The notes below the pieces were generated by a model. The model saw only the letters and a program-made list of their open reading frames with translations. It searched no databases and was not told the DNA's origin. DNA of 64,000 bases from Longimicrobiales bacterium (lineage in GTDB: Bacteria > Gemmatimonadota > Gemmatimonadetes > Longimicrobiales > Gaopeijiaceae), in the NCBI GenBank assembly GCA_965215065.1, contig OZ244037.1, positions 3,779,371 through 3,843,370 of the forward strand. Direction: 5' to 3'. The position numbers and the translations under genes are program-made. The first letter of the stretch is position 1, and each line of letters starts with the position of its first letter. This document shows positions 3,338 through 32,763 of the stretch, piece by piece.

Positions 3338-4471
3338 TCACCTCTGCTCGCCTTCGAACCTGACGATGTGGTGCGCTTTCGTCTCGGGCTCTTCTCGCGC
3401 CGTGTAGAAGACGCCCGGGGGGCCGAATGCAGTCGGGAAGCCGGGCGGATTCAAGCGCCGGGATTCCCCGGAGGCCATCGAGACGACGAAGACCTGGAAC
3501 TCCTCGCTGGATTCCGTCCACGCCCGCAGCCAAGCATGACCGTCCGGGTCCACGATGAGTCCCGTCCACCGCTGGAGAAGCGCCGGCTCCCGATTCCGTG
3601 GTTGCGTGTGGCCGCCGATGCTCAGCACCTGACGGTCGGAGCGGAGCTCTCCGAACTCCGGCACCTCCCACTTCGGAAGGGAAATCGAATCCGTCTGCAA
3701 CGTCGCCAGGTCGACCACCCAGAGAAACCGCCTTCCACCATCCGAAACGACGACGCAGTCCTTATGTCGCGCCCAGTAGGACTCTGCCTCCCTCTTGTTG
3801 AGCTGCTGACGGGGTCGATCTTCGTAGCGGGCGCGCCAGGGAACGGGGCGTTCCCAGAGGAGCTCACGGTGGTCGCGGTCCAGGCTTTGGACCCTCCACA
3901 GCTGAAGGCGCCGGCTCTCGGCGTCCAGCGAGTCCGTCCCGAAGATCATCTTCTCTTCGTCCACCGGACTTACGAACCGCACGCCGTTAGAGCCCGTTAT
4001 GGTCGGCAGCCGAACAGCCCAGCGAAACTCCCCTTCGGCATCGAAGGCCGCCAGGTTTCGGCGGTCGTAGACGACCAGATGACGTCCGTCGAAGGCCACA
4101 TGTCCCTCGAAGAGGTCGACCAACCACGTGACGGGAAAGGACCTGTTGAACTCGCCGGGACCTTCCCCTATCCGTCCGAAGGCTTGCCGCTCCTCCAGCT
4201 CTCCCGTGAGGTGGACGATGCCCGGCCGCAAGTGGTCGTAGAGGAACAGGCTGTCGCCCGCGGCAGCCAGCCCGCCGTAGGAGGAGATCCACTCCTCCGA
4301 CCCCGTCCCGTCGCTCAGACCGAACGTGTGGGTCTCGCGGTACGACTCGGCCAGCCAACGCGTCTCCCGGGCCGACGCTCCGCACGACATCGGCGCGAGC
4401 TGGCCTTGTGCCGGCGTGCTCGTGCACGCCAGCGCCGTGGCCACCGCCAGTGCTCGCGCTGCCGTCTTCAC
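3338..4471 (-). CDS. GxGPGEF-motif beta-propeller-like secreted/lipoprotein (family copy P0)
   Basis: Only the last 377 codons of track ORF 3338..7450 are taken. GTG at 4471 overlaps the uvrA stop (GTGA). Signal-type N-terminus [23 protein letters not shown]. It carries FGRIGEGPGEF, and its C-terminal pattern is shared with the paralogs at 23845-27815 and 52190-53387. Confidence 0.75.
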   Translation of the reverse strand: MKTAARALAVATALACTSTPAQGQLAPMSCGASARETRWLAESYRETHTFGLSDGTGSEEWISSYGGLAAAGDSLFLYDHLRPGIVHLTGELEERQAFGRIGEGPGEFNRSFPVTWLVDLFEGHVAFDGRHLVVYDRRNLAAFDAEGEFRWAVRLPTITGSNGVRFVSPVDEEKMIFGTDSLDAESRRLQLWRVQSLDRDHRELLWERPVPWRARYEDRPRQQLNKREAESYWARHKDCVVVSDGGRRFLWVVDLATLQTDSISLPKWEVPEFGELRSDRQVLSIGGHTQPRNREPALLQRWTGLIVDPDGHAWLRAWTESSEEFQVFVVSMASGESRRLNPPGFPTAFGPPGVFYTAREEPETKAHHIVRFEGEQR

Positions 4472-7353: not shown

Positions 7354-7356
7354 GGT

Positions 7357-10300: not shown

Positions 10301-11967
10301 GAAAACGATCCCCGGACCGATCCGGTGGAGCGGAAGGCGGGAAACAGCTCGCCGAGCGCGGACAGGGAGAGGGGACTCACCGTCCCGGCGAGGTCCACCA
10401 CCGAAATCGCGGTGTCCCCGTAGACGCTGCCGGCGAAGGCGACCGAACTCGAGGAACCCCCCGGCAGGGACTGGTCCGCCGCGATCTCGACGGTGATTCC
10501 CGTCTCGAGGGCTCCGTCGGCGCGGATCGTCATGTTCCCGTGCCCGCGCCACTCGGCCTGCGAAACGAACATATCCAGCAGCGCGTAGTCGAGCGTCGTG
10601 GCCGTCACCGCGACATCGGCAACCCCTTCGGAGCCCAGTGTCGTGCCGCTGCCCGAAAGGTGAACAAGCGTATCGAGGCCGGTCGCGGCGAGAAGCGTCA
10701 GCTCGCCCGCGACGCCCAGGACTCCCGCTGCGCCGTCGAACAGCAGATCTCCCGACAGGAATCCGGTCACCGGCAATGCTTCGGGAAGATACCGCTCCAG
10801 CTCCTCGGTCGCGAACCGCTCCGGCTCGGCGCGCAGCTGCCTCGGTCCGCCGGCGTCGCCCGGCAGGAACGAGCCGGTCAGGGTGATCCTTCCTCCCGCT
10901 CCGAAATCGGCCTCCATACGGTCGAATTCGATCCGAGGACCGGCGGGACCGCCGACGATCCCCACTCTGCCCCGCGCAACGCCGTGATCGAACCTTTCGT
11001 CGATCCAGCTCAGATCGGCCAACGCCAAGCGTGTCATATCGAGGTCGAACGTGGTGTGCAGCCGACCCCCGTCGGAACGGGCCTCCATCCAACGGGCCTC
11101 CATCCTTCCCTCCCCCTCCGACGCAGGCAGCCGGAACCGCGCGGCGTCGATCAGGACGCCCTCCGGCCCTATCTCCACCTCGCCCGTGATGCCGGACAGG
11201 TCGAGCACCCCGTCGCCGGCCGGATACGACAGCGCCACGTCGTCCGCGAAAGCGGCCAGAAAAACGCCGGATCCCGGCCGGATGTCCACCCGGGGAAAGT
11301 CCGCTTCGATGCCCGCGACCCGTTTCTGCGTTCCGTCGGCGTCATTCAGAATCAGCGAGCCGTCCCTTATACGCATGTTCCCGATGCGGAACGCCGGCGG
11401 CGGAGCGTGCGGACCGGACGACGGCAGTGTGTCCGGACCGGGCGGCGGCGCGCCCTCGGCCTCGGCACCGTCACGGAACACCACGAGGGAGCCGAGGTCG
11501 ACACGGCCGCCGGACGGAGCCAGATCGACCACTGCTCCCCAGACTTCAAGATCGCTGATCCCGGGGAGACTTCCCAGCATCCCCGCGACCGAATACCGCG
11601 CTCGAACCGAGTCGGTCGCCAGAACACGGTGCCCCGTACTGTCCTCCAGCCGGAGCTCGTACAGCGTCGCCCCACCGAGAATTCCCCCCGGGCCCACCGA
11701 ACCGACCGTAATCGACCCGTTGATCGCGGGACGCACCCGGGCCAAAGCCCAATCGAGCGCGAGCTCCCGCCCAGCTGCGGTACGGCTGATCCACACGGTT
11801 CCGGCAACTCCGGCCGCCAGAAACAGGCTGACGGCGACGACCGCCCACAGGAAGAAGGCGCGGATCCACCGTCCCCGTGCGGGCTTCTCTTCCCGGCCGC
11901 CCTTGCCGGACGAGCGCCTCGCCGCTCTCGGTGCTCGCGAGGGTTTCACCACGGGCTCAGGGGTCAT
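7357..11967 (-). CDS. tamB: TamB-like translocation and assembly module protein (DUF490-type)
   Basis: Start taken at ATG 11967, 2 nt after the Omp85 gene stop. About 1536 aa with one N-terminal anchor helix ([26 protein letters not shown]) and a long beta-rich body. It lies directly downstream of an Omp85 gene. Call rests on architecture and synteny. Confidence 0.8.
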
Positions 11968-11969
11968 GA

Positions 11970-14240
11970 TCAGAAGGCCTGGCCGATCGAAAAATGAAGC
12001 TGGAAGCGCCGGAGCGAAAACCCGGGATCGTCGCCGAAGAGAACCGGAGGACCCAGAATGGCCAAGTCCTCGGAAACGACCCAATCGATCCACTCGGGCC
12101 CTTCACCGGCAGGTGCGATGTCGATCCGGTCCTCCGCACTGTCCCGTCCGGGAGCATAGGGCCGGATCCGGGAGGTGACCACCTGGAGCGGTTCCTGCAG
12201 CCGGAAGGAATATGCCAGGTCCGCCCGAACGGGACCGAACCGCGTGTTGTAGCGGATCCCGAGCCCCGGGCTCACCTCCAGGTCTTCGAAGTCGGGGTCG
12301 CGCGGCCAGACCTGCCCGACATCGACGAACGCGGCACCGCCCAGAACGCCGTCGGCGAGCTCGAAGCGCAGTTCCGCGCTCGCTTCGAAGGTCGACAACC
12401 CGCCCACGGGGCGGAGCTGGAAGAGGTTGTCGTGCAGGGCGGATGCGTCGCAGGTCGAGTCTACGATTGCGGATGGAAGGCAGGTGGGCCGCGCCGCCCC
12501 GCCCCGCCGGCGGAGGAGCTCTTCCACGCCGACCGACAGGCTTCTGGGTCCCAGGCTGCTCTGGGCGAATCCGCGCACGCTGTTTGCGCCTCCGCCGTAG
12601 AAGCGCTTCTGCGACGGAACCACCTCGGAGAAGCGTTCGGTCTCGGACGCGATGCCCAGGAAGCCGCCGGGACCGATCCGGCCCGCGCGGAGCCGGAGCG
12701 CGAGTACCGTTCCCGCGCCGATCCCGTTGTAGAAGCTGGCGTCCGCGAAGGCCCGCACGTACGCGTATTCCGATCCCGTGAAGCTGTCGGCGACCTCCAG
12801 GTCCAACAGGGCTCTGGAGCCGCTCGAGGGGTTGAAGATGTTGTCGCTGCGGTCGCGGTTGAAGGACATCGCAACCGGCGAAAGCCGTGTCGTGTTGGAC
12901 AGAACTTCGATGTCCACCGGGGTGCAGGTCAGAAATGTCGCACACAGCGTGACTTCGGCGGCCTCCAGGCGGCTGAGCTGCGGGCGGAATCGCAGGCTCA
13001 TGAAGGAGCCGATGCCCAGGTTGCGGCTGAACCCCAGATCCATGCCGAACGCTTGGCGCACGAAGATGTTCTTCCGGCTCTGGCGCTCGGCGAACAGGCC
13101 CACTGCGAGATCGTTCCGTCGGGACAGCAGGGTCGGCTGGTTGAAATCGATGCTCGCAAGCCAGTTGAGGCGCCCGAAGCGGCCGGTCCCCGCCTGTGCG
13201 CAGAGAGGCGTGGCCTGAAGGAGTCCGGCAAGAAGGTTGGACAGGCGCACCCGGGCTTGAAGGGTGCGGCCGCCTCCCAGAAAATTCCTGCTCGTCCATC
13301 GCCCTTCGACGTTGAAGCAGTCTGCGCTGTTGGCGCCGCCGGCCGCCCGGACCCGGTGGACATCGTCCTCCACCACCTCCACAAGTATCGGCATTACAGA
13401 GTCGGTCGCCGTCCGGGCCGTGTCACGCCGCACCTGCGCCCGCGAAACGATGCCCAGATCGTGCAGGCTTCTCTGAGCCTCGCGGACCTGATCCTCGCGA
13501 AACAGCTGCCCTTCGCGGAACGGCAGGCGCGCCAGAATCACGTCGTCGGCGAGAAGCCTGTTTCCGGTCACTTCGATGGACCCGAAGGTCGTGCGCGGAC
13601 CAAGCTCCACGCGGTAGACGACGGAGGCGGTGTCGCTGTCCCGGGCACGGTCGAAGCCGTAGAAGACATCGGCGAAGGCGTATCCCGCGTTGCGAAGGCG
13701 TTGCGTGAGGGTGTCGCGCGCCACGATGAGCTGGTAGCTCGCGGGGTCGCCCGGTGCGACGGGGATATTCGATTCGATGTCCAGCGTCGGCGGGATCGGG
13801 TCGCCGCTGAACTCGATGGAGCCGACCCGGAACAGCAGACCCTCGCTGATTCGGAAGACGACCGCCACCGTACCGTCGCCGTCGTCGCGCACCAGCTCCG
13901 CGTCAACGGCCGTCCCCCGGAATCCGTTGGCGCGGTAGAGCCGGCGCAGCCGGTCCGTGTCGTCGCCGAGGACACGCGAGCTCACGTATTGACGATCCCG
14001 AAACCAGTCGATGCCCATGGCGCATGTGGTGACCGTCAGGATCGGGGGACAGCTCGAAGCCGTGGTGAGGACGGCGCGGCGCAGCTCGGCGTCCGAAAAA
14101 GTGCGGTTGCCCTGGAACTCGACCGCGGTGATCTCCTCACGAACCGTCTGCCCGGAAACGGTTTCGGAGATGGCGATCCCGAATACCGACGCGAGGATCG
14201 CTGCGAATGCCGTACCGGGTATTTTTAAGGGACGGTCCAT
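11970..14240 (-). CDS. Omp85-family outer membrane protein (BamA/TamA-like, POTRA plus surface-antigen barrel)
   Basis: 756 aa with a signal peptide (MDRPLKIPGTAFAAILASVFGIAISETVSGQ) and POTRA-like repeats (ITAVEFQGNRTFSDAELRR, IGSIEFSGD, FGSIEVTGN). The C-terminal barrel ends with an aromatic residue (...FSIGQAF). Confidence 0.85.
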   Translation of the reverse strand: MDRPLKIPGTAFAAILASVFGIAISETVSGQTVREEITAVEFQGNRTFSDAELRRAVLTTASSCPPILTVTTCAMGIDWFRDRQYVSSRVLGDDTDRLRRLYRANGFRGTAVDAELVRDDGDGTVAVVFRISEGLLFRVGSIEFSGDPIPPTLDIESNIPVAPGDPASYQLIVARDTLTQRLRNAGYAFADVFYGFDRARDSDTASVVYRVELGPRTTFGSIEVTGNRLLADDVILARLPFREGQLFREDQVREAQRSLHDLGIVSRAQVRRDTARTATDSVMPILVEVVEDDVHRVRAAGGANSADCFNVEGRWTSRNFLGGGRTLQARVRLSNLLAGLLQATPLCAQAGTGRFGRLNWLASIDFNQPTLLSRRNDLAVGLFAERQSRKNIFVRQAFGMDLGFSRNLGIGSFMSLRFRPQLSRLEAAEVTLCATFLTCTPVDIEVLSNTTRLSPVAMSFNRDRSDNIFNPSSGSRALLDLEVADSFTGSEYAYVRAFADASFYNGIGAGTVLALRLRAGRIGPGGFLGIASETERFSEVVPSQKRFYGGGANSVRGFAQSSLGPRSLSVGVEELLRRRGGAARPTCLPSAIVDSTCDASALHDNLFQLRPVGGLSTFEASAELRFELADGVLGGAAFVDVGQVWPRDPDFEDLEVSPGLGIRYNTRFGPVRADLAYSFRLQEPLQVVTSRIRPYAPGRDSAEDRIDIAPAGEGPEWIDWVVSEDLAILGPPVLFGDDPGFSLRRFQLHFSIGQAF

Positions 14241-19671: not shown

Positions 19672-21101
19672 CAGTCCCGAGCCCTCCTCATTCTGGCCGC
19701 GAAGGCACCGTCGAATCCGCTCTCGTGGGGCAGCACCGCCAAGCACCCCGTCCTGTTCAGAAATCGGGCCGGAGCGGTGCCCGCCTCGATGCGGAAGTCC
19801 GGATGGCGCTTCAGAAAATCCTCCACCTGCCCCCAGTTCTCCTCATGCTCGAGGGTACATGTAGCGTAAACTAGGAGGCCACCTCGGGGAACCACGGAAG
19901 CGCCGCCCTCCAGGATCGCGCGCTGCAGACCGGCGAGCGGGCGGATGTCGTTTTCTCCGATGCGCCACCTTCCGTCGGGGTGACGGCGCAAGGTTCCGGT
20001 CCCGCTGCACGGCACGTCCGCCAGCACCACGTCCGCAGTGCGTATCGGCGGGCGGCGGGCATCGGCGGCCACCGCCCAGATTCGCCTGCCGGGCTTACGG
20101 CGCCTGACGGCCGCGGCACCGCTCAACCGGCGCTCGCCCTCGACTACCCGGGCAAGACGGCGCTCCGAGAGATCACCGGCCAGCACGCGTCCCGCCGTTT
20201 CGCTCAGCGCGAGCGCCTTGCCGCCCGGGGCCGCACAGAGATCGGCGACCATGGCCCCGGCCTTTGAAGACACGTAGTCCACCACGAGCGACGCCGCCGG
20301 ATCCTGGATCACTCCCTCGACGACGGACAGCGCCGTCCCCGGGTCTGCGCCCTTGGTCAGGGGAATCCAGGAATGTCCGCGCGAGCCGGGCCGACACAGC
20401 CCGGCCTCGGCCAGCTTCCGCTCCGCCTCGGCCAGCCGTCGCCCCGCCGCGCAGCCGGTCTCGTCTCCTCCGCTCCGGGCCGAACTCCGCTCGACACCGC
20501 CCGAGCTTCCTCCCACAGGGCGCAGGTACACGGTCGGCTCCCGGTTGTTTGCCTCCACCAGTGCGCGAGCACCGGCGGGCCCGAAGGCGGCGATCCATCT
20601 GCGCACCAGCCACCGAGGGTGTGATCCCCACGTCGCCAGGTAGGCTTCCAAGTCTGTCCCGGGGTCCGGAAAGGACGATTCCGTCCAGCGACCTCGCGCG
20701 ACCCTCCGCAGGACGGCGTTCACCAGTCCCGCTGCGGCACGGCTGCGCGTGCCCCTGACCTGCTCGACGGCCTCGGAGACGGCGGCGTAGGCGGGAACGC
20801 CCCCCATTTCCAAAATCTGATAGGCGCCCATCCTGAGCCCGGCGAGCACCTCCGGGTCGAGTTCCGCCAAGTCTCGCCCGCAGAGCCGCGCGAGGATGTG
20901 ATCGATCCTTCCCCGCAGGCGAACCGTGCCGTAGACCAAGGTCCGGACCCAGCCGCGCTCCGGGGATCGGGCCGCACCGGAGGCCTCCCAGGCAACGTCG
21001 AGGCGGCGGCCCGATTCCACCCCTCTCAAGATCGACGCCGCCAGGACGCGGCCGGGAGACGGCCGCCGCTTCCCGCCTCGCCCGCCGCCCGCGCGGGTCA
21101 A
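19671..21101 (-). CDS. rsmB: 16S rRNA (cytosine967-C5)-methyltransferase RsmB/Sun
   Basis: Only the C-terminal ~476 codons of track ORF 19671..21659 are taken. Tentative TTG start at 21101 (TTGA overlap with the thiG stop). NusB-like N-domain, then DLCAAPGGK, DVPCSGTG and YATCTLEHEEN. Confidence 0.82.
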   Translation of the reverse strand: MTRAGGGRGGKRRPSPGRVLAASILRGVESGRRLDVAWEASGAARSPERGWVRTLVYGTVRLRGRIDHILARLCGRDLAELDPEVLAGLRMGAYQILEMGGVPAYAAVSEAVEQVRGTRSRAAAGLVNAVLRRVARGRWTESSFPDPGTDLEAYLATWGSHPRWLVRRWIAAFGPAGARALVEANNREPTVYLRPVGGSSGGVERSSARSGGDETGCAAGRRLAEAERKLAEAGLCRPGSRGHSWIPLTKGADPGTALSVVEGVIQDPAASLVVDYVSSKAGAMVADLCAAPGGKALALSETAGRVLAGDLSERRLARVVEGERRLSGAAAVRRRKPGRRIWAVAADARRPPIRTADVVLADVPCSGTGTLRRHPDGRWRIGENDIRPLAGLQRAILEGGASVVPRGGLLVYATCTLEHEENWGQVEDFLKRHPDFRIEAGTAPARFLNRTGCLAVLPHESGFDGAFAARMRRARD

Positions 21102-21925
21102 CCCTGCTCCCGATCCAGCATCCCCGTTGCGGGTGAAGACGGGACCGCGATCTCCCTCGCGGGCATGCGTCCGGCAAGGTACGCCGCCCTGCCGGCGAGG
21201 ACCGCGAGCTTCATGGCGCCAGCCATGCCCACCGGGTCGGACGCGGCGGCGATCGCCGTGTTCATCAACACGCCGTCCACGCCCTGCTCCATGGTGATGC
21301 ACGCATCCGAAGACGTCCCCACACCCGCATCCACGATGACCGGAACGGTGAGCCGGCGCTTGATCTCGCGGATGTAGTAGGGGTTGACCACGCCCAGGCC
21401 GCTTCCGATGGGACTCGCCAAGGGCATCACGGCCACGCATCCGGCGTCTTCCAAGCGCAGCGCGGTGATCAGGTCGTCGTTGGTGTAGGCCATGACCTTG
21501 AAGCCGTCGGCCACCAGCTCGGCCGCCGCCTCGAGAGTGGCGGCCGTGTCGGGCAGGAGGGTGCGCTCGTCGCCGATCACCTCCAGCTTGACCCAGTCGT
21601 TGAGCCCCGCGGCGCGTCCCAGGCGGGCGTAGCGCAACGCATCCTTCGCCGTGTAGCACCCTGCGGTATTGGGCAGCAGGAAGAACTCGTCCGGGGACAG
21701 GTGGTGGAGGATGCCTTCCTCCTGACTGCGGTCGAGATCCACCCTGCGCACCGCCACCGTCACCATCTCGGCACCGCTGGCGCGGACGGCGGCGACCATC
21801 TCGCCGTTGGTCCGGTACTTCCCGGTTCCGACGATGAGTCTCGAAGCGAAAGTCCTGCCCCCTATGTTCAACAGCCCATGGCAGTAGTCCGCCGCGGCAT
21901 TCGACCGGCGATGCATCCCGTCCAC
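21098..21925 (-). CDS. thiG: Thiazole synthase
   Basis: 275 aa with SRLIVGTGKY, LLPNTAGC, VKLEVIGD, VMPLASPIGSG and VIVDAGVG. Confidence 0.95.
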   Translation of the reverse strand: MDGMHRRSNAAADYCHGLLNIGGRTFASRLIVGTGKYRTNGEMVAAVRASGAEMVTVAVRRVDLDRSQEEGILHHLSPDEFFLLPNTAGCYTAKDALRYARLGRAAGLNDWVKLEVIGDERTLLPDTAATLEAAAELVADGFKVMAYTNDDLITALRLEDAGCVAVMPLASPIGSGLGVVNPYYIREIKRRLTVPVIVDAGVGTSSDACITMEQGVDGVLMNTAIAAASDPVGMAGAMKLAVLAGRAAYLAGRMPAREIAVPSSPATGMLDREQG

Positions 21926-21931
21926 GGGCGT

Positions 21932-22159
21932 CTATCCCCCTCCTACGAAGTGCACGAGTTCGATCCTGTCCCCTTCCTCGACCGGCGTGGTGTTCAGCGC
22001 CCCGCGCGCAAGGATCTCGCGGTTGCGTTCGACGACGACCATGCCCGCATGAAGTTGCAGATCACCCAGCAGGTCGGCCACGGTGAGCCCGGTGCGGACC
22101 GCGCGGCTCTCTCCGTTGAGCACGATCGACACGCGGCCCGACGCACGGCCCGGGATCAT
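21932..22159 (-). CDS. thiS: Sulfur-carrier protein ThiS
   Basis: 75 aa from internal ATG 22159, ending in the diagnostic C-terminal GG (...ELVHFVGGG). The track ORF extends to 22282 through a duplicated 18-bp repeat and would overlap thiE. Confidence 0.8.
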   Translation of the reverse strand: MIPGRASGRVSIVLNGESRAVRTGLTVADLLGDLQLHAGMVVVERNREILARGALNTTPVEEGDRIELVHFVGGG

Positions 22160-22172
22160 GCCGCACCCGGCC

Positions 22173-22208
22173 GCTTCAGCCTCGCGGCCAGCTTCAGCCT
22201 CGCGGCCA
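22173..22208. repeat. 18-bp perfect tandem duplication (gcttcagcctcgcggcca x2)
   Basis: Read directly. It lies between the thiE stop and the preferred thiS start. Confidence 0.85.
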
Positions 22209-22250
22209 TCGCCCGACCCGTCGTCGTCCTGGCGGCCATCGTCCGACCGG

Positions 22251-22898
22251 TCATGGTCCGTCCTCCTGACGGAGTACTTCAAGGTAGCGCGTCACGGCCC
22301 GCTGCGGGCTCTTCGTCCGCCACACCCCACTCAGCACGACCACGCCGTGCGCCCCGTGGGCCAGAACGCCGCGCACATCGGTCGGCGAGATTCCTCCGAT
22401 GGCGAGCACGGGAAGGTCTCCTCCGGCGACGGCCGCCGCCAACGCCTTGACGCCCAGCGCAGGTCTGCCCGGATGCGAACGCGTAGGGTTCACCGCCCCC
22501 AGCACCAGGTAGTCCAACCCGCTCCCGTGCAGCTCCGCCGCCTGCTCCGGCGAGTGGATCGATCTGCCCAGGCGCATCCGCGCCGCCGTGATCCGGCGCA
22601 CCGCCGGGGCGGGCAGAGAATCTTCCCGCAGGTGCACGCCGCCAGCACCCGCGGCCATCGCGATATCGATCCTGTCGTTGATCACCAGCAAGGTTCCGGT
22701 TTCCCGCGAAGCGTGCGCGACCCAGCACGCGGCATCGAAGAGACGTCGAGCCGGAGTGCTCCGCGTTCGGAGGTGCAGCGCCATGGCTCCTTTCCCCGCT
22801 GCGAGGACCGGACGGAGCCGTTCCCGACAGTCGTCCGCACCCACGACCCTGTCGTCGGCGATCACATGCAGCCGCGGCAGCCGCCCTGCTCCTCGCAC
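22251..22898 (-). CDS. thiE: Thiamine-phosphate synthase
   Basis: Last ~215 codons of track ORF 22251..23213, with GTG at 22898, 8 nt after the fmt stop. Motifs: LHVIAD, LVINDRIDIA, GVHL and AIGGI, typical of ThiE. Confidence 0.83.
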   Translation of the reverse strand: MRGAGRLPRLHVIADDRVVGADDCRERLRPVLAAGKGAMALHLRTRSTPARRLFDAACWVAHASRETGTLLVINDRIDIAMAAGAGGVHLREDSLPAPAVRRITAARMRLGRSIHSPEQAAELHGSGLDYLVLGAVNPTRSHPGRPALGVKALAAAVAGGDLPVLAIGGISPTDVRGVLAHGAHGVVVLSGVWRTKSPQRAVTRYLEVLRQEDGP

Positions 22899-22906
22899 GA
22901 CGCCCC

Positions 22907-23848
22907 CTACTCGAAGCGATCGCCGGGTCGGGGTCCTCGTCCCCGCAACCAGGCCGCGGCATCCATGCGCCGCTTTCCCGCGGGCTGGACCTCGCCGATC
23001 CGGAGCACGCCGTCCCCCGTGGCCACGAAGAGGCCGCGCCTGGGGCCCGCGGCCACGACCTCGCCGGCGAGCCCCTTCGTCGGCATCGGAGGGCTGGCCA
23101 CCACCGCCGGACGAAAGAGCTTTACCGGTGCTCCGCCGAGCCGCGTCCAGGCTCCCGGGATCTCGTCCATCGCTCTGATGAGGTCGGCCACCGCGCGGGC
23201 ATCCCTCCCCCATTCGATCCGTGCCGACCGGCGATCGACCTTCGGCGCGAAGGTGGCCGCCTCGTGATCCTGCTCCACCTCCTCCACCGATCCCGCCTCA
23301 AGCCGGGCCAAGACTTCCACCACGAGGCGCGCGCCCATGTCCGCGAGGCGACGCGAAAGCAGGAACGCCGTGTCGCCGCGGCCGATGGGAAGCGCCTGCT
23401 GTGCCAGCACCGGTCCCGCGTCCATCGCCTCGACCATGCGCATGACGGAGACGCCCGTGACCGCGTGTCCGCGCTCGATGGCCCGGTTGATGGGGGCCGC
23501 GCCCCTGAGCGCCGGAAGGAGCGACGCGTGCAGGTTCAGCGAACCGAGACGCGGGATGTCCAAGACCCGGCGCGTCAGGATGCGCCCGTAGGCGACGACA
23601 ACCGAAACATCGGGACACAGCGCCCGGATCGCGGTCTCGAAGGACTCGCCCCGCGGGCGCTCGGGAGTAAACACCCGATATCCTTCGGCGTCCGCGACCC
23701 GTCTCACGACCGATGGTTGCAGCGTGCGGCCACGTCCGCGTGGCCGGTCCGGCCGGGTCACGACCCCGATCACACTGTGCCCGGCAGCCGCGAGGGCCCG
23801 CAGCGTGGGGACCGCAAACTCGGGCGTGCCCCAGAAGAGGATCTTCAC
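22907..23848 (-). CDS. fmt: Methionyl-tRNA formyltransferase
   Basis: 313 aa with KILFWGTPEFAVP, NLHASLLPALRGAAPINRAI and a C-terminal Fmt domain. GTG start at 23848 overlaps the stop of the upstream paralog (GTGA). Confidence 0.95.
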   Translation of the reverse strand: MKILFWGTPEFAVPTLRALAAAGHSVIGVVTRPDRPRGRGRTLQPSVVRRVADAEGYRVFTPERPRGESFETAIRALCPDVSVVVAYGRILTRRVLDIPRLGSLNLHASLLPALRGAAPINRAIERGHAVTGVSVMRMVEAMDAGPVLAQQALPIGRGDTAFLLSRRLADMGARLVVEVLARLEAGSVEEVEQDHEAATFAPKVDRRSARIEWGRDARAVADLIRAMDEIPGAWTRLGGAPVKLFRPAVVASPPMPTKGLAGEVVAAGPRRGLFVATGDGVLRIGEVQPAGKRRMDAAAWLRGRGPRPGDRFE

Positions 23849-25077
23849 GGGCTGTCCGCGCTAACCTGCCCCGGAACCGACCTCGCCTGTTCCGGATCCA
23901 GCGGAAGCAACCTGCGCCCGACGATGTGCGGCACATCCAGCGAATCCCACCGGACCCCCCAGACATGGGTTGCCGTCGCGGTGCTGACCCGCAGGGACTC
24001 GGGCAGGAGCACGCGCCGCGGCTCCTCGCCCGGGTCCCTCGGCACCGCGTAGTGCGTCCTGAGCGTGTCCGAAACCTCGTGGGTCGCGAGCCAGACTTCG
24101 CCGGAGGCTGCAAGCGTGAACTCCTTCGCTGCCGGCAGTTCCGGCCTGTAGAGCGCTTCGTCGTACATGCGCCGAAGCTCCTGCCTGGACATTCTCTCGG
24201 CACGCAACGGCGGGAACACCCTTCCCTGCATCCAATCATCCACCATTCGGGAAGTCAGCCTTCGCGGCTCGAATTGCAGGTGCCGGTGCCAGACCGTATC
24301 CCCCTCCCCGTTCACTTCGAACAGTTCGACCGCACCGGGCGCTTCGTTCCGCCGCATCACCACCGCCCCGCCCGGCATCAGCCGGAACTGATCCGAATCT
24401 CGAAACGGCTGGGCTGAGTATGCCCCACCGTCGGGAAACCGGAGGGCGAGAGTCTTGTTGCGAACGTCCAGCCACAACAACCGCTCGGGAACATTCCACT
24501 GCCCGGTGGCGGAACGGCTGACGCGCAGCAGGGGCTGTCGGTCCATGGGGTCGACACCGTCCGCTCCGACTTGAAGGCGTGAAGGGATTCTCGCAGCGCC
24601 CACGAAGACGCCGTCCCCGGGAGGGGCCACCGCAACGGCGAAGCCCTGGTAGCTGACCCGCATTCCCGGTCCCAGCGCGGTCTCGATCAGCTCCCCATCC
24701 GCCGTGAAATAGGCGTGTCGGGTTCCCCAGAAGTCCACTACGGACAAGGTGCCGTCCGCCTCGAAGAACAGGTCTCCGGGAACACCGAACTCGCCGGGGC
24801 CCTCTCCCCTCCCGCCCACGACGAAGAGCAGGGAACCCTCCGGAGACCACGCGCTGATCTGGGGGCTGCCGTGGTCCACGACGAAAACCCGGTTCCGCAC
24901 GGGATCGGCGCGCACGACCGGCCGCCGGAAGATCACATCCCGTTCGGGGGCGTCGCCGAACTGGTACTCCGCTTCGGTGATCCACATCGAAGGGGCGTCG
25001 CCGGAGGTGGCGCTCTCGCCGCCGCCGCATGCGGCGCACAGGGAGAGGATCAGCGCGTTGCGCAGACGAACGGCCAC
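23845..25077 (-). CDS. GxGPGEF-motif beta-propeller-like lipoprotein, tandem copy P1
   Basis: 410 aa from GTG 25077; an in-frame stop lies just upstream, which fixes this start. Signal with Cys (LILSLCAACGGG), GGRGEGPGEF, and a C-terminal third nearly identical to P2 and P3. Confidence 0.8.
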   Translation of the reverse strand: MAVRLRNALILSLCAACGGGESATSGDAPSMWITEAEYQFGDAPERDVIFRRPVVRADPVRNRVFVVDHGSPQISAWSPEGSLLFVVGGRGEGPGEFGVPGDLFFEADGTLSVVDFWGTRHAYFTADGELIETALGPGMRVSYQGFAVAVAPPGDGVFVGAARIPSRLQVGADGVDPMDRQPLLRVSRSATGQWNVPERLLWLDVRNKTLALRFPDGGAYSAQPFRDSDQFRLMPGGAVVMRRNEAPGAVELFEVNGEGDTVWHRHLQFEPRRLTSRMVDDWMQGRVFPPLRAERMSRQELRRMYDEALYRPELPAAKEFTLAASGEVWLATHEVSDTLRTHYAVPRDPGEEPRRVLLPESLRVSTATATHVWGVRWDSLDVPHIVGRRLLPLDPEQARSVPGQVSADSP

Positions 25078-25145
25078 GGAATCACCGGTGGGGGGAAGAG
25101 GGCAGCCCTGACGAAGCTCGTGTGTGTTGTAGACCGTGGCGATCC

Positions 25146-25200
25146 CTACCCGCCAAGGGGGGCTCCGACCGCTGCGGTCGCATCTTCAGCTTCCAGCCGG
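25146..25200 (-). pseudogene. Relic of the 3-prime end of the Cys-rich protein gene, carried along by the duplication
   Basis: Minus-strand translation ...AEDATAAVGAPLGG-stop parallels the true gene end ...SSNVTAAVGAPLDG-stop at 27889-27945. Flanking nucleotides are also homologous. Confidence 0.55.
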
Positions 25201-25231
25201 CACTCTCGCACACGGTGCTTCCCCGCTAAGC

Positions 25232-25261
25232 TAAGGGACACTGTCGTAAGGGACACTGTCG
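25232..25261. repeat. 15-bp perfect tandem duplication (taagggacactgtcg x2)
   Basis: Read directly, in the 221-bp spacer between P2 and P1. Confidence 0.85.
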
Positions 25262-25298
25262 CCACAATCCCAACATACGCGAAGCGGTGCCCGCTAAC

Positions 25299-26537
25299 CT
25301 AACCTGCCCTCGGGACCGCCCTCGCCTGTTCCGGATCCAGCGGAACCAACCTGCGCCCGACGATGTGCGGCACATCCAGCGAATCCCACCAGACCCCCCA
25401 GACATGGGTCGCCGTCGCGGTGCTGACCCGCAGGGACTCGGGCAGGAGCACGCGCCGCGGCTCCTCGCCCGGGTCCCTCGGTACCGCGTAGTGCGTCCTG
25501 AGCGTGTCCGAGACCTCATGGGTCGCGAGCCAGACTTCGCCCGTGGCGGCAATCGTGAATTCCTTCGCTGCCGGCAGGTGTTCCGGCGCGTAGACCGCTT
25601 CGTCATATATGCGCCGAAGCTCCTGCTTGGACACTCTCTCGGTATAGTACGGCGCGAACGCCTCGACCTGTTTCTCGACCCAGTCGTCCACCATTCGGGA
25701 AGCCAGCGCTCGCGGCTCGAATTGCAGGCGGCGGTGCCAGACCGTATCCCCCTCCCCGTTCACTTCGACCAGTTCGACCGCACCGGGCGCTTCGTTCCGC
25801 CGCATCACCACCGCCCCGCCCGGCATCAGCCGCAACTGATCCGAATCTTTAAACGGCTGGGCTGAGTATGGCCGCCCACCGTCCGGAAACCGGAGGGCGA
25901 GGGTCTTGTTGCGAACATCCAGCCACAACAACCGTTCGGGATCATTCCACTGCCCGGCGGCAGAACGGCTGACGCGCAGCAGGGGCTCTCTGTACATGGG
26001 GCTGACACCGTCCGCTCCCACTCGGACGTCCAAAGGAATGCTCGCAACGCCCACGTAGACACTGTCTCCGGGAGGAGTCACCACGACGCGGAAGCCTTGG
26101 TAGCTGACCCTCATTCCCGGTCCCAGCGCGGTTTCAATCAGCTCCCCTTCCGCCGTGAAATACGCGTGCCGAGCTCCCCCCATATCCACTACGGACAAGG
26201 TGCCGTCCGCCTCGAAGAACAGGTCTCCGGGAATACTGAACTCACCGGGGCCCTCTCCTCTTCCGCCCACGACGAAGAGCAGGGAACCGTCCGGGGACCA
26301 CGCGCTGATCTGGGGGCTGCCGTGGTCCACGACGAAGACCCGGTTCCGCACGGGATCGGCGCGCACGACCGGCCGCCGGAAGATCACATCCCGTTCGGGG
26401 GCGTCGCCGAACTGGTGCTCCGCTTCGGTGATCCATGTCGAAGGGGCGTCGCCGGAGGAGGTGGCGCTATCGTCGCCGCCGCATGCGGCGCACAGGGCAA
26501 GGATCAGCGGCAGGGCGCTGCGCAGACGAACGGCCAC
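25299..26537 (-). CDS. GxGPGEF-motif beta-propeller-like lipoprotein, tandem copy P2
   Basis: Start set at GTG 26537, homologous to the P1 start; the track ORF runs to 26573. LILALCAACGGD signal and GGRGEGPGEF. TAG stop at 25299. Confidence 0.8.
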   Translation of the reverse strand: MAVRLRSALPLILALCAACGGDDSATSSGDAPSTWITEAEHQFGDAPERDVIFRRPVVRADPVRNRVFVVDHGSPQISAWSPDGSLLFVVGGRGEGPGEFSIPGDLFFEADGTLSVVDMGGARHAYFTAEGELIETALGPGMRVSYQGFRVVVTPPGDSVYVGVASIPLDVRVGADGVSPMYREPLLRVSRSAAGQWNDPERLLWLDVRNKTLALRFPDGGRPYSAQPFKDSDQLRLMPGGAVVMRRNEAPGAVELVEVNGEGDTVWHRRLQFEPRALASRMVDDWVEKQVEAFAPYYTERVSKQELRRIYDEAVYAPEHLPAAKEFTIAATGEVWLATHEVSDTLRTHYAVPRDPGEEPRRVLLPESLRVSTATATHVWGVWWDSLDVPHIVGRRLVPLDPEQARAVPRAG

Positions 26538-26588
26538 GGATTCACGGATCGACAAACGAACCGGCCCGGACAATGCTCGTGTCCGCCG

Positions 26589-27815
26589 CTAACCTGCCCC
26601 CGGAACCGCCCTCGCCTGTTCCGGGTCGAGCGGAACCAGCCTCCGCCCGACGATGTGCGGCACATCCAGCGAATCCCACCAGACCCCCCAGACATGGGTC
26701 GCCGTCGCGGTGCTGACCCGCAGGGACTCGGGCAGGAGCACGCGCCGCGGCTCCTCGTCCGGGTCCCTCGGCACCGCGTAGTGCGTCCTGAGCGTGTCCG
26801 AAACCTCGTGGGTCGCGAGCCAGACTTCGCCGGAGGCTGCAAGAGTGAATTCTTTCGCTGCCGGCAGGTGTTCCGGCGCGTAGAGCGCTTCGTCGTACAT
26901 GCGCCGAAGCTCCTGCCTGGGCACTCTCTCGGCATAGTACGGCGCGATCACCCTTCCCTGCATCCAATCATCCACCATTCGGGAAGTCAGCCTTCGCGGC
27001 CCGAAGTGCAGGTGCCGGTGCCAGACCGTATCCCCCTCCCCGTTCACTTCGACCAGTTCCACCGCACCGGGCGCTTCGTTCCGCCGCATCACCACCGCCC
27101 CGCCCGGCATCAGCCGGAACTGATCCGAATCTCGAAACGGCTGGGCTGAGTATGCCCCACCGTCGGGAAACCGGAGGGCGAGAGTCTTGTTGCGAACGTC
27201 CAGCCACAACAACCGCTCGGGATCTTTCCACTGCCCGGTGGCGGAACGCCTGACGCGCAGCAGGGGCTGTCGGTCCATGGGGGCGACACCGTCCGCTCCG
27301 ACTTCAAGGTGTGAAGGGATGCTCGCAGCGCCCACGTAGACACCGTCCCCGGGAGGGGCCACCGAGACGGCGAAGCCCTGGTAGCTGACCCGCATTCCCG
27401 GTCCCAGCGCGGTTTCGATCAGCTCCCCTTCCGCCGTGAAATACGTGTGCCGGCTTCCCCAGTAGTCCACTACGGACAAGGTGCCGTCCGGCTCGAAGAA
27501 CAGGTCTCCGGGAACACCGAACTCGCCGGGGCCCTCTCCTCTCCCGCCCACGACGAAGAGCAGGGAACCCTCCGGGGCCCACGCGCTGATCTGCGGGCTG
27601 CCGTGGTCCACGACGAAGACCCGGTTCCGCACGGGATCGGCGCGCACGACCGGCCGCCGGAAGATCACATCCATCTCCGGTGCGTCGCCGAACTGGTACT
27701 CCGCTTCGGTGATCCATGTCGAAGGGGCACCGCCGCCGGTGGCGCTCTCGCCGCCGCCGCAGGCAGCGCACAGGGCAAGGATCAGCGGCAGGGAGCTGCG
27801 CAGACGAACGGCCAC
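26589..27815 (-). CDS. GxGPGEF-motif beta-propeller-like lipoprotein, tandem copy P3
   Basis: Start set at GTG 27815, homologous to the P1 start; the track ORF runs to 27899 and would overlap the upstream gene. LILALCAACGGG signal and GGRGEGPGEF. Confidence 0.8.
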   Translation of the reverse strand: MAVRLRSSLPLILALCAACGGGESATGGGAPSTWITEAEYQFGDAPEMDVIFRRPVVRADPVRNRVFVVDHGSPQISAWAPEGSLLFVVGGRGEGPGEFGVPGDLFFEPDGTLSVVDYWGSRHTYFTAEGELIETALGPGMRVSYQGFAVSVAPPGDGVYVGAASIPSHLEVGADGVAPMDRQPLLRVRRSATGQWKDPERLLWLDVRNKTLALRFPDGGAYSAQPFRDSDQFRLMPGGAVVMRRNEAPGAVELVEVNGEGDTVWHRHLHFGPRRLTSRMVDDWMQGRVIAPYYAERVPRQELRRMYDEALYAPEHLPAAKEFTLAASGEVWLATHEVSDTLRTHYAVPRDPDEEPRRVLLPESLRVSTATATHVWGVWWDSLDVPHIVGRRLVPLDPEQARAVPGAG

Positions 27816-27888
27816 GGAATCACCGCCGTGGAGGAAGAAGGCAGCCCTACTAACGAAGCTCGTGTGTGTTGTAGACCCGTGGCGATCC

Positions 27889-28437
27889 CTACCCGTCAAG
27901 GGGGGCTCCGACCGCTGCGGTCACGTTTGAGCTTCCGGATGGTGGTGCCGGTGTGCCATCGCCAGTCGGCCGTGCATGTGTTCCACGCCAAGCCAAGCGA
28001 TCCTCGGCTGCGTGCTCAGACTCAAGCGCCCGCAGGGGTATTCGAGCGATGAGCGAACGATCGCACTTTCGCATGACGACCGCGTTCTCTCCGTCCATGA
28101 CGAAGAAGTGGCCACCGTCTGCCGGCAGCATTTCACGCGCCATGACCATCTCGATCGCCTGCTGATCGGTCGCCGCAGCTCCGGTATCGCAGTCTCCCCC
28201 ATGAGCCTGACACCAGTGGTCGTCCGGGGTACCTTGCTGTGCGCAGTCCGCAGAGCCTCCGTGCGCGCCCTTGCACTTGGAGCTGTCCTCATCGAAGGAA
28301 CTGGGGCCGCATACCACGCATTCGCCGATTGTCGGCTGCGCCGCACCCACGACGGGACTTGCCGCCAGCAGCGCGCCGAAGAGCAGAGGCACGGCAACGA
28401 TGGTGGTGGACAGGGGATTATGGGTCGTGTCCCTCAT
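27889..28437 (-). CDS. Cys-rich secreted protein, unknown family
   Basis: Internal ATG 28437 is preceded by GGGAGGA 8 nt upstream. 182 aa with a signal peptide (TTIVAVPLLFGALLAASPVVGAAQ). Cys-rich head: GECVVCGPSSFDEDSSKCKGAHGGSADCAQQGTPDDHWCQAHGGDCD. Confidence 0.65.
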   Translation of the reverse strand: MRDTTHNPLSTTIVAVPLLFGALLAASPVVGAAQPTIGECVVCGPSSFDEDSSKCKGAHGGSADCAQQGTPDDHWCQAHGGDCDTGAAATDQQAIEMVMAREMLPADGGHFFVMDGENAVVMRKCDRSLIARIPLRALESEHAAEDRLAWRGTHARPTGDGTPAPPSGSSNVTAAVGAPLDG

Positions 28438-28562
28438 GGAAGCATCCTCCCTATGGGGATTTGGTTTCGCCGCCTTGTGTCCGTAGGGGCGGCAGGCTCC
28501 AACAACATGAACGATCATACTGTAACCTCCGACGACCTTCGACGCCAGTCGACCACACAGCG

Positions 28563-29078
28563 CTATCGCCCCGCACCGCCCTGCATCTTTCGCCACTTCT
28601 TGAGGAGGATCCCCCGCTTCAGCGGTGACAGCCGGTCGATGAAGAGCACGCCGTCGAGATGATCGACCTCGTGCTGGAGAGCCCGGGCCAGCATCCCGTC
28701 GGCCTCGATGCGCACGGCGTCTCCATCCAGAGAGACGGCGTCGACCGTGACGCGCACCGAACGGGTCACCTTCTCCTCGATCCCCGGAATGCTCAGGCAC
28801 CCTTCGGTCGCCTTGTCCGTCCGCCTGCTCGACTCGACGATGACCGGATTGATCAGCGCGTGCACGTGCCGGCTCTCGTCCTCGTTCGTGACATCGGCGA
28901 CGACGATACGCCGCGACACCCCCACCTGCGGCCCCGCCAAGCCGATCCCCTCGGCCTGATACATCGTGTCGAACATGTCGCGGGCCAGACGCCGCACCTC
29001 GTCGGTGACCTCCTCGACGGGCTCCGCCGTCCTGCGCAGAACCTTCGCGCCCATGATCTCGATATCCAGCATTGCCAC
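28563..29078 (-). CDS. def: Peptide deformylase
   Basis: 171 aa with GIGLAGPQVG, EGCLSIPG and HEVDHLDG, the three PDF motifs. Start is GTG 29078 or ATG 29072. Confidence 0.95.
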   Translation of the reverse strand: MAMLDIEIMGAKVLRRTAEPVEEVTDEVRRLARDMFDTMYQAEGIGLAGPQVGVSRRIVVADVTNEDESRHVHALINPVIVESSRRTDKATEGCLSIPGIEEKVTRSVRVTVDAVSLDGDAVRIEADGMLARALQHEVDHLDGVLFIDRLSPLKRGILLKKWRKMQGGAGR

Positions 29079-29109
29079 GGAAACGCTCGCTCCGCCAGCC
29101 CGCGGGCCG

Positions 29110-32763
<3,654 letters not shown>

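What the first reader, a model, noticed from the sequence alone, without database searches (positions are those of the whole stretch)
23845..28437. def-fmt pair split by a Cys-rich secreted protein gene and a tandem triplication of lipoprotein genes
def (28563..29078) and fmt (22907..23848) are adjacent and co-transcribed in most bacteria (established). Here they are 4.7 kb apart on the same strand. The gap holds four same-strand genes: the 182-aa Cys-rich signal-peptide protein and three ~410-aa paralogs. The paralogs share a Cys-containing signal (LILALCAACGG), the GRGEGPGEF motif and near-identical 3-prime thirds. The last copy ends in a GTGA overlap with the fmt start. An essential translation gene is therefore physically coupled to a recently amplified accessory gene.
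Basis: partly seen in the sequence, partly recalled or inferred. Interest (0 to 1): 0.68.

Follow-up and report, generated by a model that had tools for sequence, protein, structure and literature searches.

The report
Accessory gene cassette inserted between def and fmt
In this Gemmatimonadota genome a young 4.7-kb insertion splits the normally fused def-fmt translation genes; it holds one secreted cysteine-rich protein gene and three copies of a beta-propeller lipoprotein gene, a real but fairly ordinary case of insertion plus tandem duplication.

Summary
Between them are a 182-aa Cys-rich signal-peptide protein and three paralogs that are 86-91% identical.

The split is a derived state. In 80 of 80 other Gemmatimonadota species, def and fmt are adjacent (-4 to +136 nt), and 38 of them show a 4-nt stop/start overlap. 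One sister genome (about 94% nt identity) carries the same insertion, so it is not an assembly artefact.

The four genes are not independent. Cys-rich gene plus propeller gene is a recurrent two-gene module. A paralogous copy (76% nt identity over 1.86 kb) lies elsewhere in the sister assembly, and its propeller protein is also on record for the source contig. The same pairing recurs in distant relatives, sometimes with 2-3 tandem propellers.

The paralogs are probable lipoproteins with a confidently predicted six-bladed NHL-type beta-propeller. The Cys-rich protein belongs to an unannotated family with seven conserved cysteines.

The GTGA overlap with fmt depends on one G in a G-run. The sister genome instead has TAG followed by 12 nt.

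No terminator-like site lies on the coding strand, so read-through from def to fmt is the likely mode of expression (inferred). The biochemical function is unknown. Interest is modest.

The parts
28563..29078 (-). def, peptide deformylase. It is the upstream flank of the insertion, with stop TAG at 28565-28563.
   Evidence: PF01327 E 2e-53 and TIGR00079 167 bits, above its cut-off. The EGCLS and HEVDH motifs are visible in the translation.
28438..28562 (-). 125-nt spacer between def and the Cys-rich gene. It is less GC-rich than the flanks and has GGGAGGA 8 nt before the ATG. Its proximal ~37 nt (up to 28474) align with the upstream region of the paralogous module, so they came in with the insert.
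   Evidence: Sequence. blastn colinearity L002:7322-9164 to window 28474-26637.
27889..28437 (-). Cys-rich secreted protein, 182 aa. It has a signal peptide ending ...GAAQ. Seven family-conserved Cys are present (C40, C43, C55, C65, C76, C83, C125). It also carries the motif EMLPADGGHFFVMDG..VVMRKCDRSLIAR and a variable tail.
   Evidence: 42 homologs among 1.84e9 representatives and alignment A3. No Pfam, NCBIfam, PADLOC or PDB match. dN/dS 0.49 against the sister genome.
26589..27815 (-). Propeller lipoprotein copy 3 (408 aa), next to the Cys-rich gene, which is the native position in the module.
25299..26537 (-). Propeller lipoprotein copy 2 (412 aa), the most divergent copy (86-87% aa identity to the others).
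   Evidence: It equals P0002.
25195..25298 (-). 104-nt stretch of the copy 2 / copy 1 spacer that is unique within the region compared. It contains a short tandem duplication (gacagtgtccctta twice).
   Evidence: (no match elsewhere in the region).
25078..25194 (-). Junction scar. It is a copy of the last 48 nt of the Cys-rich gene plus the Cys/propeller spacer (88% identical to 27816-27936). This shows that one duplication unit began inside the Cys-rich gene.
   Evidence: (family D5). The same scar is present in the sister genome L083.
23845..25077 (-). Propeller lipoprotein copy 1 (410 aa). A G-run one base shorter (23869-23872) skips the family's TAG (23863-23861) and extends the ORF by 5 codons to the TGA that overlaps the fmt GTG.
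   Evidence: Structure model pLDDT 88.5, six-bladed propeller.
22907..23848 (-). fmt, methionyl-tRNA formyltransferase. It is the downstream flank, with GTG start at 23848-23846 and no strong Shine-Dalgarno motif in the 15 nt before it.
   Evidence: TIGR00460 262 bits, PF00551 and PF02911. Sequence.

Best explanation
A two-gene envelope module was copied into the very short def-fmt junction. The module consists of a Sec-secreted Cys-rich protein followed by an NHL-type six-bladed beta-propeller lipoprotein, and it arrived with part of its own 5' region. The insertion happened in a recent ancestor of this Longimicrobiales-like lineage. The most likely source is a paralogous module elsewhere in the same genome.

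The propeller gene was then amplified in tandem to three copies by unequal recombination. One duplication unit started inside the Cys-rich gene and left a 117-nt scar.

All four genes kept the orientation of the operon, and no terminator-like site separates them. fmt is therefore most likely still transcribed from upstream, through the cassette. Its translation is most likely coupled to the ORF that now ends at or 12 nt before its start codon.

Shown: the gene content, the derived state, the shared insertion in a sister genome, the module's recurrence, the fold, and the duplication scar. Inferred: read-through transcription, translational coupling, the direction of copying, and that the Cys-rich protein and the propellers act together in the periplasm or at the cell surface.
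For: - Derived state. In 80/80 relatives def and fmt are adjacent, with a gap of -4 to +136 nt. No family member lies between them.
- Real and inherited. Sister genome L083 has def - Cys-rich - propellers - fmt at ~94% nt identity, including the same scar and filler.
- Module. L002 (the P0003 locus) is colinear with window 28474-26637 over 1.86 kb at 76%. P0003 is also on record for the 4,095,690-bp source contig.
- Recurrence. A Cys-family gene lies directly upstream of a propeller gene in L085, L086, L087, L088 (twice), L094 and L098.
- Tandem propellers occur elsewhere (L091 x3, L099 x2, L098 x2).
- Scar. 25078-25194 matches 27816-27936 at 88%.
- Fold. AF2 pLDDT 88.5 and pTM 0.87. Foldseek top hits are NHL domains, prob 1.0. 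The family profile hits NHL domains in the PDB at E 2e-28.
- Lipoprotein. The Cys is conserved in 72/80 members, with A or G at -1 in 70 of them.
- Selection. dN/dS is 0.47-0.54 between copies, against 0.09 for def.
- Expression signals. No terminator-like site on the minus strand and no sigma-70-like site in 22500-29600.
Against: - Transcription and coupling are not measured. The promoter and terminator scans are crude and not tuned to this phylum.
- The 125-nt def/Cys-rich spacer and the 221-nt spacer before copy 1 could each hold a promoter.
- The direction of copying (second locus to def-fmt, or the reverse, or both from a third source) is not resolved. One related module (L086) lies next to relaxase and MobC genes, so horizontal arrival is possible.
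- Only about half of the propeller loci examined have a Cys-family gene upstream, so the partnership is not obligatory.
- No functional data exist for either family.
- The copy number in the sister genome is hidden by a 100-N scaffold gap.
Confidence: 0.75

Rival explanations
1. Assembly artefact: the triplication (or the whole insertion) is a mis-join or an over-expanded repeat.
For: Tandem repeats are error-prone. The short-read sister assembly has a 100-N gap inside the array. Another contig breaks about 190 nt after the end of the Cys-rich gene (L084).
Against: The three copies differ at 6-10% of bases and by indels, and each has its own flanks. The def/Cys-rich junction, the scar and the copy 1/fmt junction are all reproduced in an independent assembly.
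Confidence: 0.03
2. Horizontally acquired islet: the cassette arrived from another organism on a mobile element and is not an intragenomic copy.
For: GC content of the insert (0.64-0.70) is slightly below the flanks (0.70-0.73). A related module sits beside relaxase and MobC genes in L086.
Against: There is no integrase, transposase, tRNA or inverted repeat at or in the insert. The closest homolog of the propellers outside the two arrays (69%) and the closest Cys-rich relative apart from the sister ortholog both lie at one second locus. That locus was read in the sister assembly, and its propeller is on record for the source contig. All homologs seen are Gemmatimonadota-type.
Confidence: 0.15
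3. The cassette is transcriptionally autonomous and fmt has acquired its own promoter. In that case the physical adjacency has no regulatory meaning.
For: About 40 nt or more of the module's own upstream DNA came with it. There are 125-nt and 221-nt spacers, and the first is relatively AT-rich.
Against: No promoter-like site was found. The fmt start lies 12 nt or less from the preceding stop and has no good Shine-Dalgarno motif, which fits dependence on upstream translation. No terminator-like site lies on the coding strand.
Confidence: 0.2
4. The module is an effector/immunity-like pair. The secreted disulfide-rich protein would be a toxin or effector. The tandemly amplified lipoproteins would be its binding or neutralising partners.
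For: The gene order is a small secreted protein followed by 1-3 lipoprotein genes. Tandem amplification recurs, constraint is relaxed (dN/dS ~0.5), and the distribution is patchy.
Against: There is no similarity to any toxin, immunity or defence family. Many propeller genes lack the partner. The evidence is purely architectural.
Confidence: 0.12

Closest known systems
def-fmt(-rsmB) operon of E. coli and most bacteria
   Same: The two genes are present, on the same strand and in the same order. In 80/80 relatives they are adjacent, often with a 4-nt stop/start overlap.
   Different: Here 4.7 kb of accessory genes separate them. In this phylum thiE-thiS-thiG also lies between fmt and rsmB.
PF17170 (DUF5128) six-bladed beta-propeller lipoproteins of Bacteroides, e.g. 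BF0058 (PDB 4raa)
   Same: Similar size, an N-terminal lipoprotein-like signal and a six-bladed propeller. There are weak direct Pfam hits, and several family members carry precomputed PF17170 hits. 4raa is found by both profile and fold search.
   Different: The window proteins score below the Pfam cut-off (19.2, 18.5 and 13.7 against 22.9 bits). They carry a helical insert at residues 276-308. The family is Gemmatimonadota-centred and often has a Cys-rich partner gene.
NHL-repeat domains of TRIM-NHL proteins (Brat, Mei-P26, TRIM2/3/71, Thin)
   Same: These are the best structural and profile matches: Foldseek E 6e-9, prob 1.0, and hmmsearch E 2e-28 over blades 1-2. The G-x-G-x-G-P-G-E-F type blade motif is shared.
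   Different: Sequence identity is 10-17%. The TRIM-NHL domains are RNA- or protein-binding domains of eukaryotic cytoplasmic proteins. This one is an exported bacterial lipoprotein, and no functional inference carries over.
Eukaryotic-like NHL-repeat proteins reported as enriched in sponge symbionts (PMC3977351)
   Same: It is an NHL-type repeat protein family that is expanded and tandemly amplified. From memory, several of the nearest relatives' isolate names (SB06xx, RHO, APA bins) belong to sponge metagenome studies. I did not verify this here.
   Different: The habitat of this genome was not established. No Pfam NHL (PF01436) hit appeared at E <= 0.1. A role in host interaction is speculation.

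Membership tests
Peptide deformylase (def) | Score above the curated cut-off of TIGR00079 / PF01327, and the metal-binding motifs EGCLS and HExxH | tested here: met
   167 bits against 104 (TIGR00079) and 180 bits against 22.8 (PF01327). EGCLSIPG and QHEVDH are in the translation.
Methionyl-tRNA formyltransferase (fmt) | Score above the TIGR00460 cut-off, with N- and C-terminal formyltransferase domains | tested here: met
   261.8 bits against 201.5, plus PF00551 and PF02911.
Canonical def-fmt operon | def immediately upstream of fmt on the same strand | tested here: not met
   The stop-to-start distance in the window is 4714 nt. In 80/80 relatives it is -4 to +136 nt.
Canonical def-fmt operon | Co-transcription of def and fmt | not testable with these tools
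   There is only indirect evidence: same strand throughout, and no terminator-like site on that strand.
PF17170 / DUF5128 six-bladed beta-propeller | Pfam gathering score (22.9 bits) | tested here: not met
   19.2, 18.5 and 13.7 bits for copies 1, 2 and 3. Some homologs at 45-58% identity carry a precomputed PF17170 hit.
NHL-type six-bladed beta-propeller fold | Six four-stranded blades, with closest structural neighbours being NHL propellers | tested here: met
   AF2 model pLDDT 88.5 with about 24 strands in a blade-like pattern. The top 23 Foldseek hits are NHL domains, prob 1.0, with TM 0.32-0.62 normalised by the target. Profile against PDB gives E 1.8e-28.
Bacterial lipoprotein (signal peptidase II substrate) | Lipobox [LVI][ASTVI][GAS]C after a short basic/hydrophobic N-terminus | tested here: inconclusive
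   The Cys is conserved in 72/80 family members, with A or G at -1 in 70 and L or V at -4 in 54. Only 39/72 fit the strict PROSITE-style pattern. The window copies have Cys at -3 (L-C-A-A-C).
Tandem segmental duplication | Head-to-tail copies on one strand with shared flanks or junction scars | tested here: met
   Three copies spaced 1.28-1.45 kb apart. A scar of the Cys-rich gene's 3' end lies before copy 1.
Mobile element / genomic island | Integrase or transposase, tRNA target, terminal inverted or direct repeats | tested here: not met
   There are no tRNAs in the window and no inverted repeats. The four ORFs have no such domains. Only a 6-nt TAGCGC is shared by the two outer junctions.
Known anti-phage defence or toxin-immunity systems | Match to a PADLOC or Pfam toxin/immunity model | tested here: not met
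   No hits for either protein.

The most novel reading that the evidence does not exclude
The Cys-rich secreted protein and the NHL-type propeller lipoproteins may constitute a previously undescribed two-component extracytoplasmic system of Gemmatimonadota. Examples would be a disulfide-rich effector or ligand with lipoprotein receptors or neutralisers, possibly used in host or neighbour interaction. In this lineage the system would have been wired into the constitutive, essential def-fmt operon, so that fmt expression now depends on transcription and translation through it.
Probability: 0.2. Interest if true: 0.5.

Novelty: new member of a known kind. Interest (0 to 1): 0.33.

Why it matters
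This is a clean, datable example of an accessory cassette being inserted into, and then amplified inside, one of the most conserved translation-gene pairs without breaking it. It shows that the def-fmt junction tolerates 4.7 kb of extra genes as long as strand and coupling are kept.

It also uncovers a recurrent gene pair of two uncharacterised exported protein families in a poorly studied phylum. One is a family with seven conserved cysteines that has no database annotation. The other is an NHL-type propeller lipoprotein. The pairing gives a concrete starting point for experiments. It does not reveal a new mechanism.

Tried and rejected
- Word-indexed homolog search with the Cys-rich protein found only the sister ortholog, which suggested an orphan. 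The exhaustive phmmer search then found 42 relatives, so the orphan reading was dropped.
- The metagenome scan with the Cys-family alignment failed. A3 was too divergent to derive a pattern, and A4 gave pattern hits but no true relative.
- A profile search of the Cys family through the word index returned only 7 proteins.
- The single-sequence AF2 model of the Cys-rich protein was poor (pLDDT 48). I therefore did not use it for fold search.
- Exact look-ups of P0121 and P0002 gave no record, so the source record name was not obtained.
- Rfam, tRNA and PADLOC searches were all empty.
- Literature searches for DUF5128 / PF17170 and for def-fmt gene order gave nothing useful.
- I considered and rejected three readings: assembly artefact, ancestral single-copy synteny, and a classical mobile element. 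The reasons are in the rival explanations and membership tests.


Full report
OBSERVATION

On the minus strand the window reads queA (30671-31723), tgt, yajC, def (28563-29078), four ORFs, fmt (22907-23848), thiE, thiS, thiG, rsmB. def and fmt are unambiguous: TIGR00079 scores 167 bits and TIGR00460 scores 262 bits, both above their curated cut-offs.

The four ORFs between them are:
- a 182-aa Cys-rich protein with a signal-like N-terminus (27889-28437);
- propeller copy 3 (26589-27815);
- propeller copy 2 (25299-26537);
- propeller copy 1 (23845-25077).

I set the paralog starts at the GTG that is conserved in all three (MAVRLR...). Each is preceded by GGTGAT or a close variant. The sequence upstream of that GTG in the longer mechanical ORFs is not conserved.

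The copies are 86-91% identical in protein and 90-94% in DNA. They are the only long repeat family in the 64-kb window. The stop of copy 1 overlaps the fmt GTG as GTGA.

IS THE SPLIT DERIVED?

A scan of one genome per species with the Fmt protein returned 80 Gemmatimonadota loci with fmt 52-76% identical.
- In all 80, def lies directly upstream of fmt. The stop-to-start distance is -4 nt in 38, -1 in 2 and +3 to +136 in the rest.
- The wider order queA-tgt-yajC-def-fmt-(thiE)-thiG is largely kept.
- Profile searches of all six frames of these loci found no Cys-family member anywhere. They found only weak hits (E >= 5e-9) to other propeller proteins, several kb from the def-fmt junction.
- The 4.7-kb gap is therefore a lineage-specific insertion, not ancestral synteny.

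IS IT REAL?

The only close homolog of the Cys-rich protein in the word-indexed database led to a sister genome, GCA_964347385.1 (locus L083).
- L083 is ~94% identical in DNA across the region. Its order is def, Cys-rich (164 aa), a propeller gene interrupted by a 100-N scaffold gap, the same spacer, a 408-aa propeller gene, then fmt.
- A second short-read contig (L084) ends about 190 nt after the end of the Cys-rich gene, as expected where a repeat begins.
- Two independent assemblies agree on both outer junctions and on the inner scar, and the three copies are clearly diverged. Together this rules out an assembly artefact for the insertion.
- Only the copy number in the sister genome (two or three) stays open.

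THE GTGA OVERLAP

Copies 2 and 3, and the last copy in L083, end ...CCGGGGGCAGGTTAG, translated ...PGAG followed by the stop. In L083 fmt starts 12 nt after that TAG.

Copy 1 in the window has one G fewer (the G-run at 23869-23872). This shifts the frame past the TAG and adds five codons (QVSADSP) up to the TGA of GTGA.

The overlap is therefore either a strain-specific 1-nt change or a homopolymer error. In both versions the upstream ORF ends within 12 nt of the fmt start. The 15 nt before fmt contain no strong Shine-Dalgarno motif, whereas relatives such as L003 have GGAGAGGGG there. Termination-reinitiation coupling is plausible but remains inferred.

The same 4-nt overlap is the most common def/fmt junction in relatives.

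THE FOUR GENES ARE ONE MODULE PLUS TWO EXTRA COPIES

- The closest propeller homolog outside the two def-fmt arrays, P0003 (69%), is on record for the same 4.10-Mb source contig. I read its locus from the sister assembly (L002).
- Directly upstream of P0003 lies a homolog of the Cys-rich gene (53-60% aa identity, frameshifted in that assembly). The whole 1.86 kb (L002:7322-9164) is colinear with window 28474-26637 at 76% nt identity. That span includes 37 nt upstream of the Cys-rich start codon.
- The Cys-rich protein is not an orphan. An exhaustive phmmer search found 42 representatives. They share a signal peptide ending in AQ and seven conserved cysteines. They also share a C-terminal motif, GEMLPADGxYFFVxDG...VVMRKCDxSxVAR.
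- No Pfam, NCBIfam, PADLOC or PDB family matches it.
- Wherever I could read the context of a Cys-family gene, a propeller gene follows it: L002, L085, L086, L087, L088 (two consecutive pairs), L089, L094, and L098 (one Cys gene plus two propellers). This holds down to 28% (Cys-rich) and 33-36% (propeller) identity to the window proteins.
- The reverse does not hold. About half of the propeller loci have no Cys-family gene upstream (L001, L091-L093, L095-L097, L099). Some of those are tandem arrays of two or three.
- Tandem amplification is therefore a habit of this family, and one Cys-family gene can precede several propellers.

DUPLICATION HISTORY

- The 221-nt spacer before copy 1 has two parts. 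One is 104 nt with no match elsewhere in the region. The other is 117 nt (25078-25194) that are 88% identical to the last 48 nt of the Cys-rich gene plus the spacer before copy 3. One duplication unit thus began inside the Cys-rich gene.
- The scar is also present in L083, so that duplication predates the split of the two genomes.
- dS between copies (0.10-0.16) is of the same order as dS between the two genomes for def, fmt and the propellers (0.06-0.10).
- In L083 the 5' part of the first copy is closer to window copy 1 (96%) than to its positional counterpart, copy 3 (92%). This hints at gene conversion or a chimeric short-read assembly.
- dN/dS is 0.47-0.54 between copies and 0.49 for the Cys-rich gene, against 0.09 for def. 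Both accessory genes are constrained, so they are real genes, but only loosely.
- There is no integrase, transposase, tRNA or inverted repeat.
- The two outer junctions share only TAGCGC, at the def stop and at the family stop of copy 1. That could be microhomology or chance.

WHAT THE PROTEINS ARE

- With an 80-sequence alignment, AlphaFold2 gives a confident model of copy 1 (pLDDT 88.5, pTM 0.87). It is a six-bladed beta-propeller with a helical insert at residues 276-308 and a disordered N-terminal 25 residues.
- Foldseek places it next to NHL domains (Mei-P26, Brat, Thin, TRIM2/3/71; prob 1.0). Further down the list comes Bacteroides BF0058 (4raa).
- The family profile hits the same NHL domains by sequence (E 2e-28 over blades 1-2) and 4raa at 7e-5.
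- Direct Pfam hits to PF17170 stay below the cut-off.
- The N-terminal Cys is conserved in 72 of 80 members, with A or G at -1. The window copies have an unusual Cys at -3. They are probable, not proven, lipoproteins.
- The biochemical function of both families is unknown.
- My working model is that the secreted disulfide-rich protein and the propeller lipoproteins act together in the periplasm or at the cell surface. An effector/immunity-like reading and a host-interaction reading are architectural guesses only. NHL repeats are listed among the eukaryotic-like domains enriched in sponge symbionts (PMC3977351).

EXPRESSION

No terminator-like site lies on the minus strand between 22500 and 29600, and no sigma-70-like site was found. 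The scans are crude for this phylum. The most economical reading is that the def-fmt transcript now runs through the cassette. Additional transcription starts are possible in the module's own upstream DNA (28438-28562).

VERDICT

The feature is a young, lineage-specific insertion of a recurrent two-gene envelope module into the def-fmt junction, followed by tandem amplification of the propeller gene.

It is a tidy evolutionary case, and it exposes an unannotated Cys-rich protein family with a consistent genomic partner. The processes involved (segmental duplication, unequal crossing-over, operon read-through) are well known, and nothing suggests a new mechanism. Interest is modest.

Noticed in passing
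window 21098-22901 (thiG, thiS, thiE) and L003-L082: thiE-thiS-thiG lies between fmt and rsmB here, and thiG sits about 1 kb downstream of fmt in nearly all 80 relatives. The classical def-fmt-rsmB string had therefore already taken up an older insertion in this phylum.
   Followed up: partly
L003-L082, def/fmt junction: In 38 of 80 Gemmatimonadota species the def stop overlaps the fmt start by 4 nt (GTGA type), and in 2 more by 1 nt. Several relatives (L007, L009, L010, L012) carry AGCCCGTG(A/G) at or just after the def stop. The same AGCCCGTGA sits at the fmt start in the window, possibly a remnant of the ancestral junction.
   Followed up: partly
window 28560-28565 and 23858-23863: TAGCGC occurs both at the def stop and at the family stop codon of copy 1, and TAGCGG follows copies 2 and 3. 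This may be microhomology at the insertion and duplication junctions, or chance.
   Followed up: no
L086 1736-2821: A related Cys-rich plus propeller module (P0005, 64% identical) lies next to relaxase and MobC genes, which suggests that some modules travel on mobilisable elements.
   Followed up: no
L002 ~7563: The Cys-rich paralog at the second locus is split over two frames in the sister assembly. It is either a pseudogene or a sequencing error. Its 3' part was called as an 84-aa gene.
   Followed up: partly
window 25195-25298: This is a 104-nt filler with no match elsewhere in the region. It contains gacagtgtccctta twice in tandem. The sister genome seems to have the unit only once, judging from the reverse-strand translation.
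   Followed up: no
L083 10445-10993 compared with window copies: The first propeller copy of the sister genome is closer to window copy 1 (96%) than to its positional counterpart, copy 3 (92%). This indicates gene conversion between copies or a chimeric short-read assembly.
   Followed up: no
window 3338-7450 (-), 7357-12093 (-), 11970-14240 (-): There is a 1578-aa TamB-like protein and an Omp85/POTRA protein (a TAM-like pair). Downstream of them lies a 1370-aa ORF with no Pfam hit. In this high-GC DNA that ORF may or may not be a real gene.
   Followed up: no
whole window: No Rfam family reached its gathering score and no tRNA was found in 64 kb. There is also no TPP riboswitch hit near the thi genes.
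   Followed up: yes
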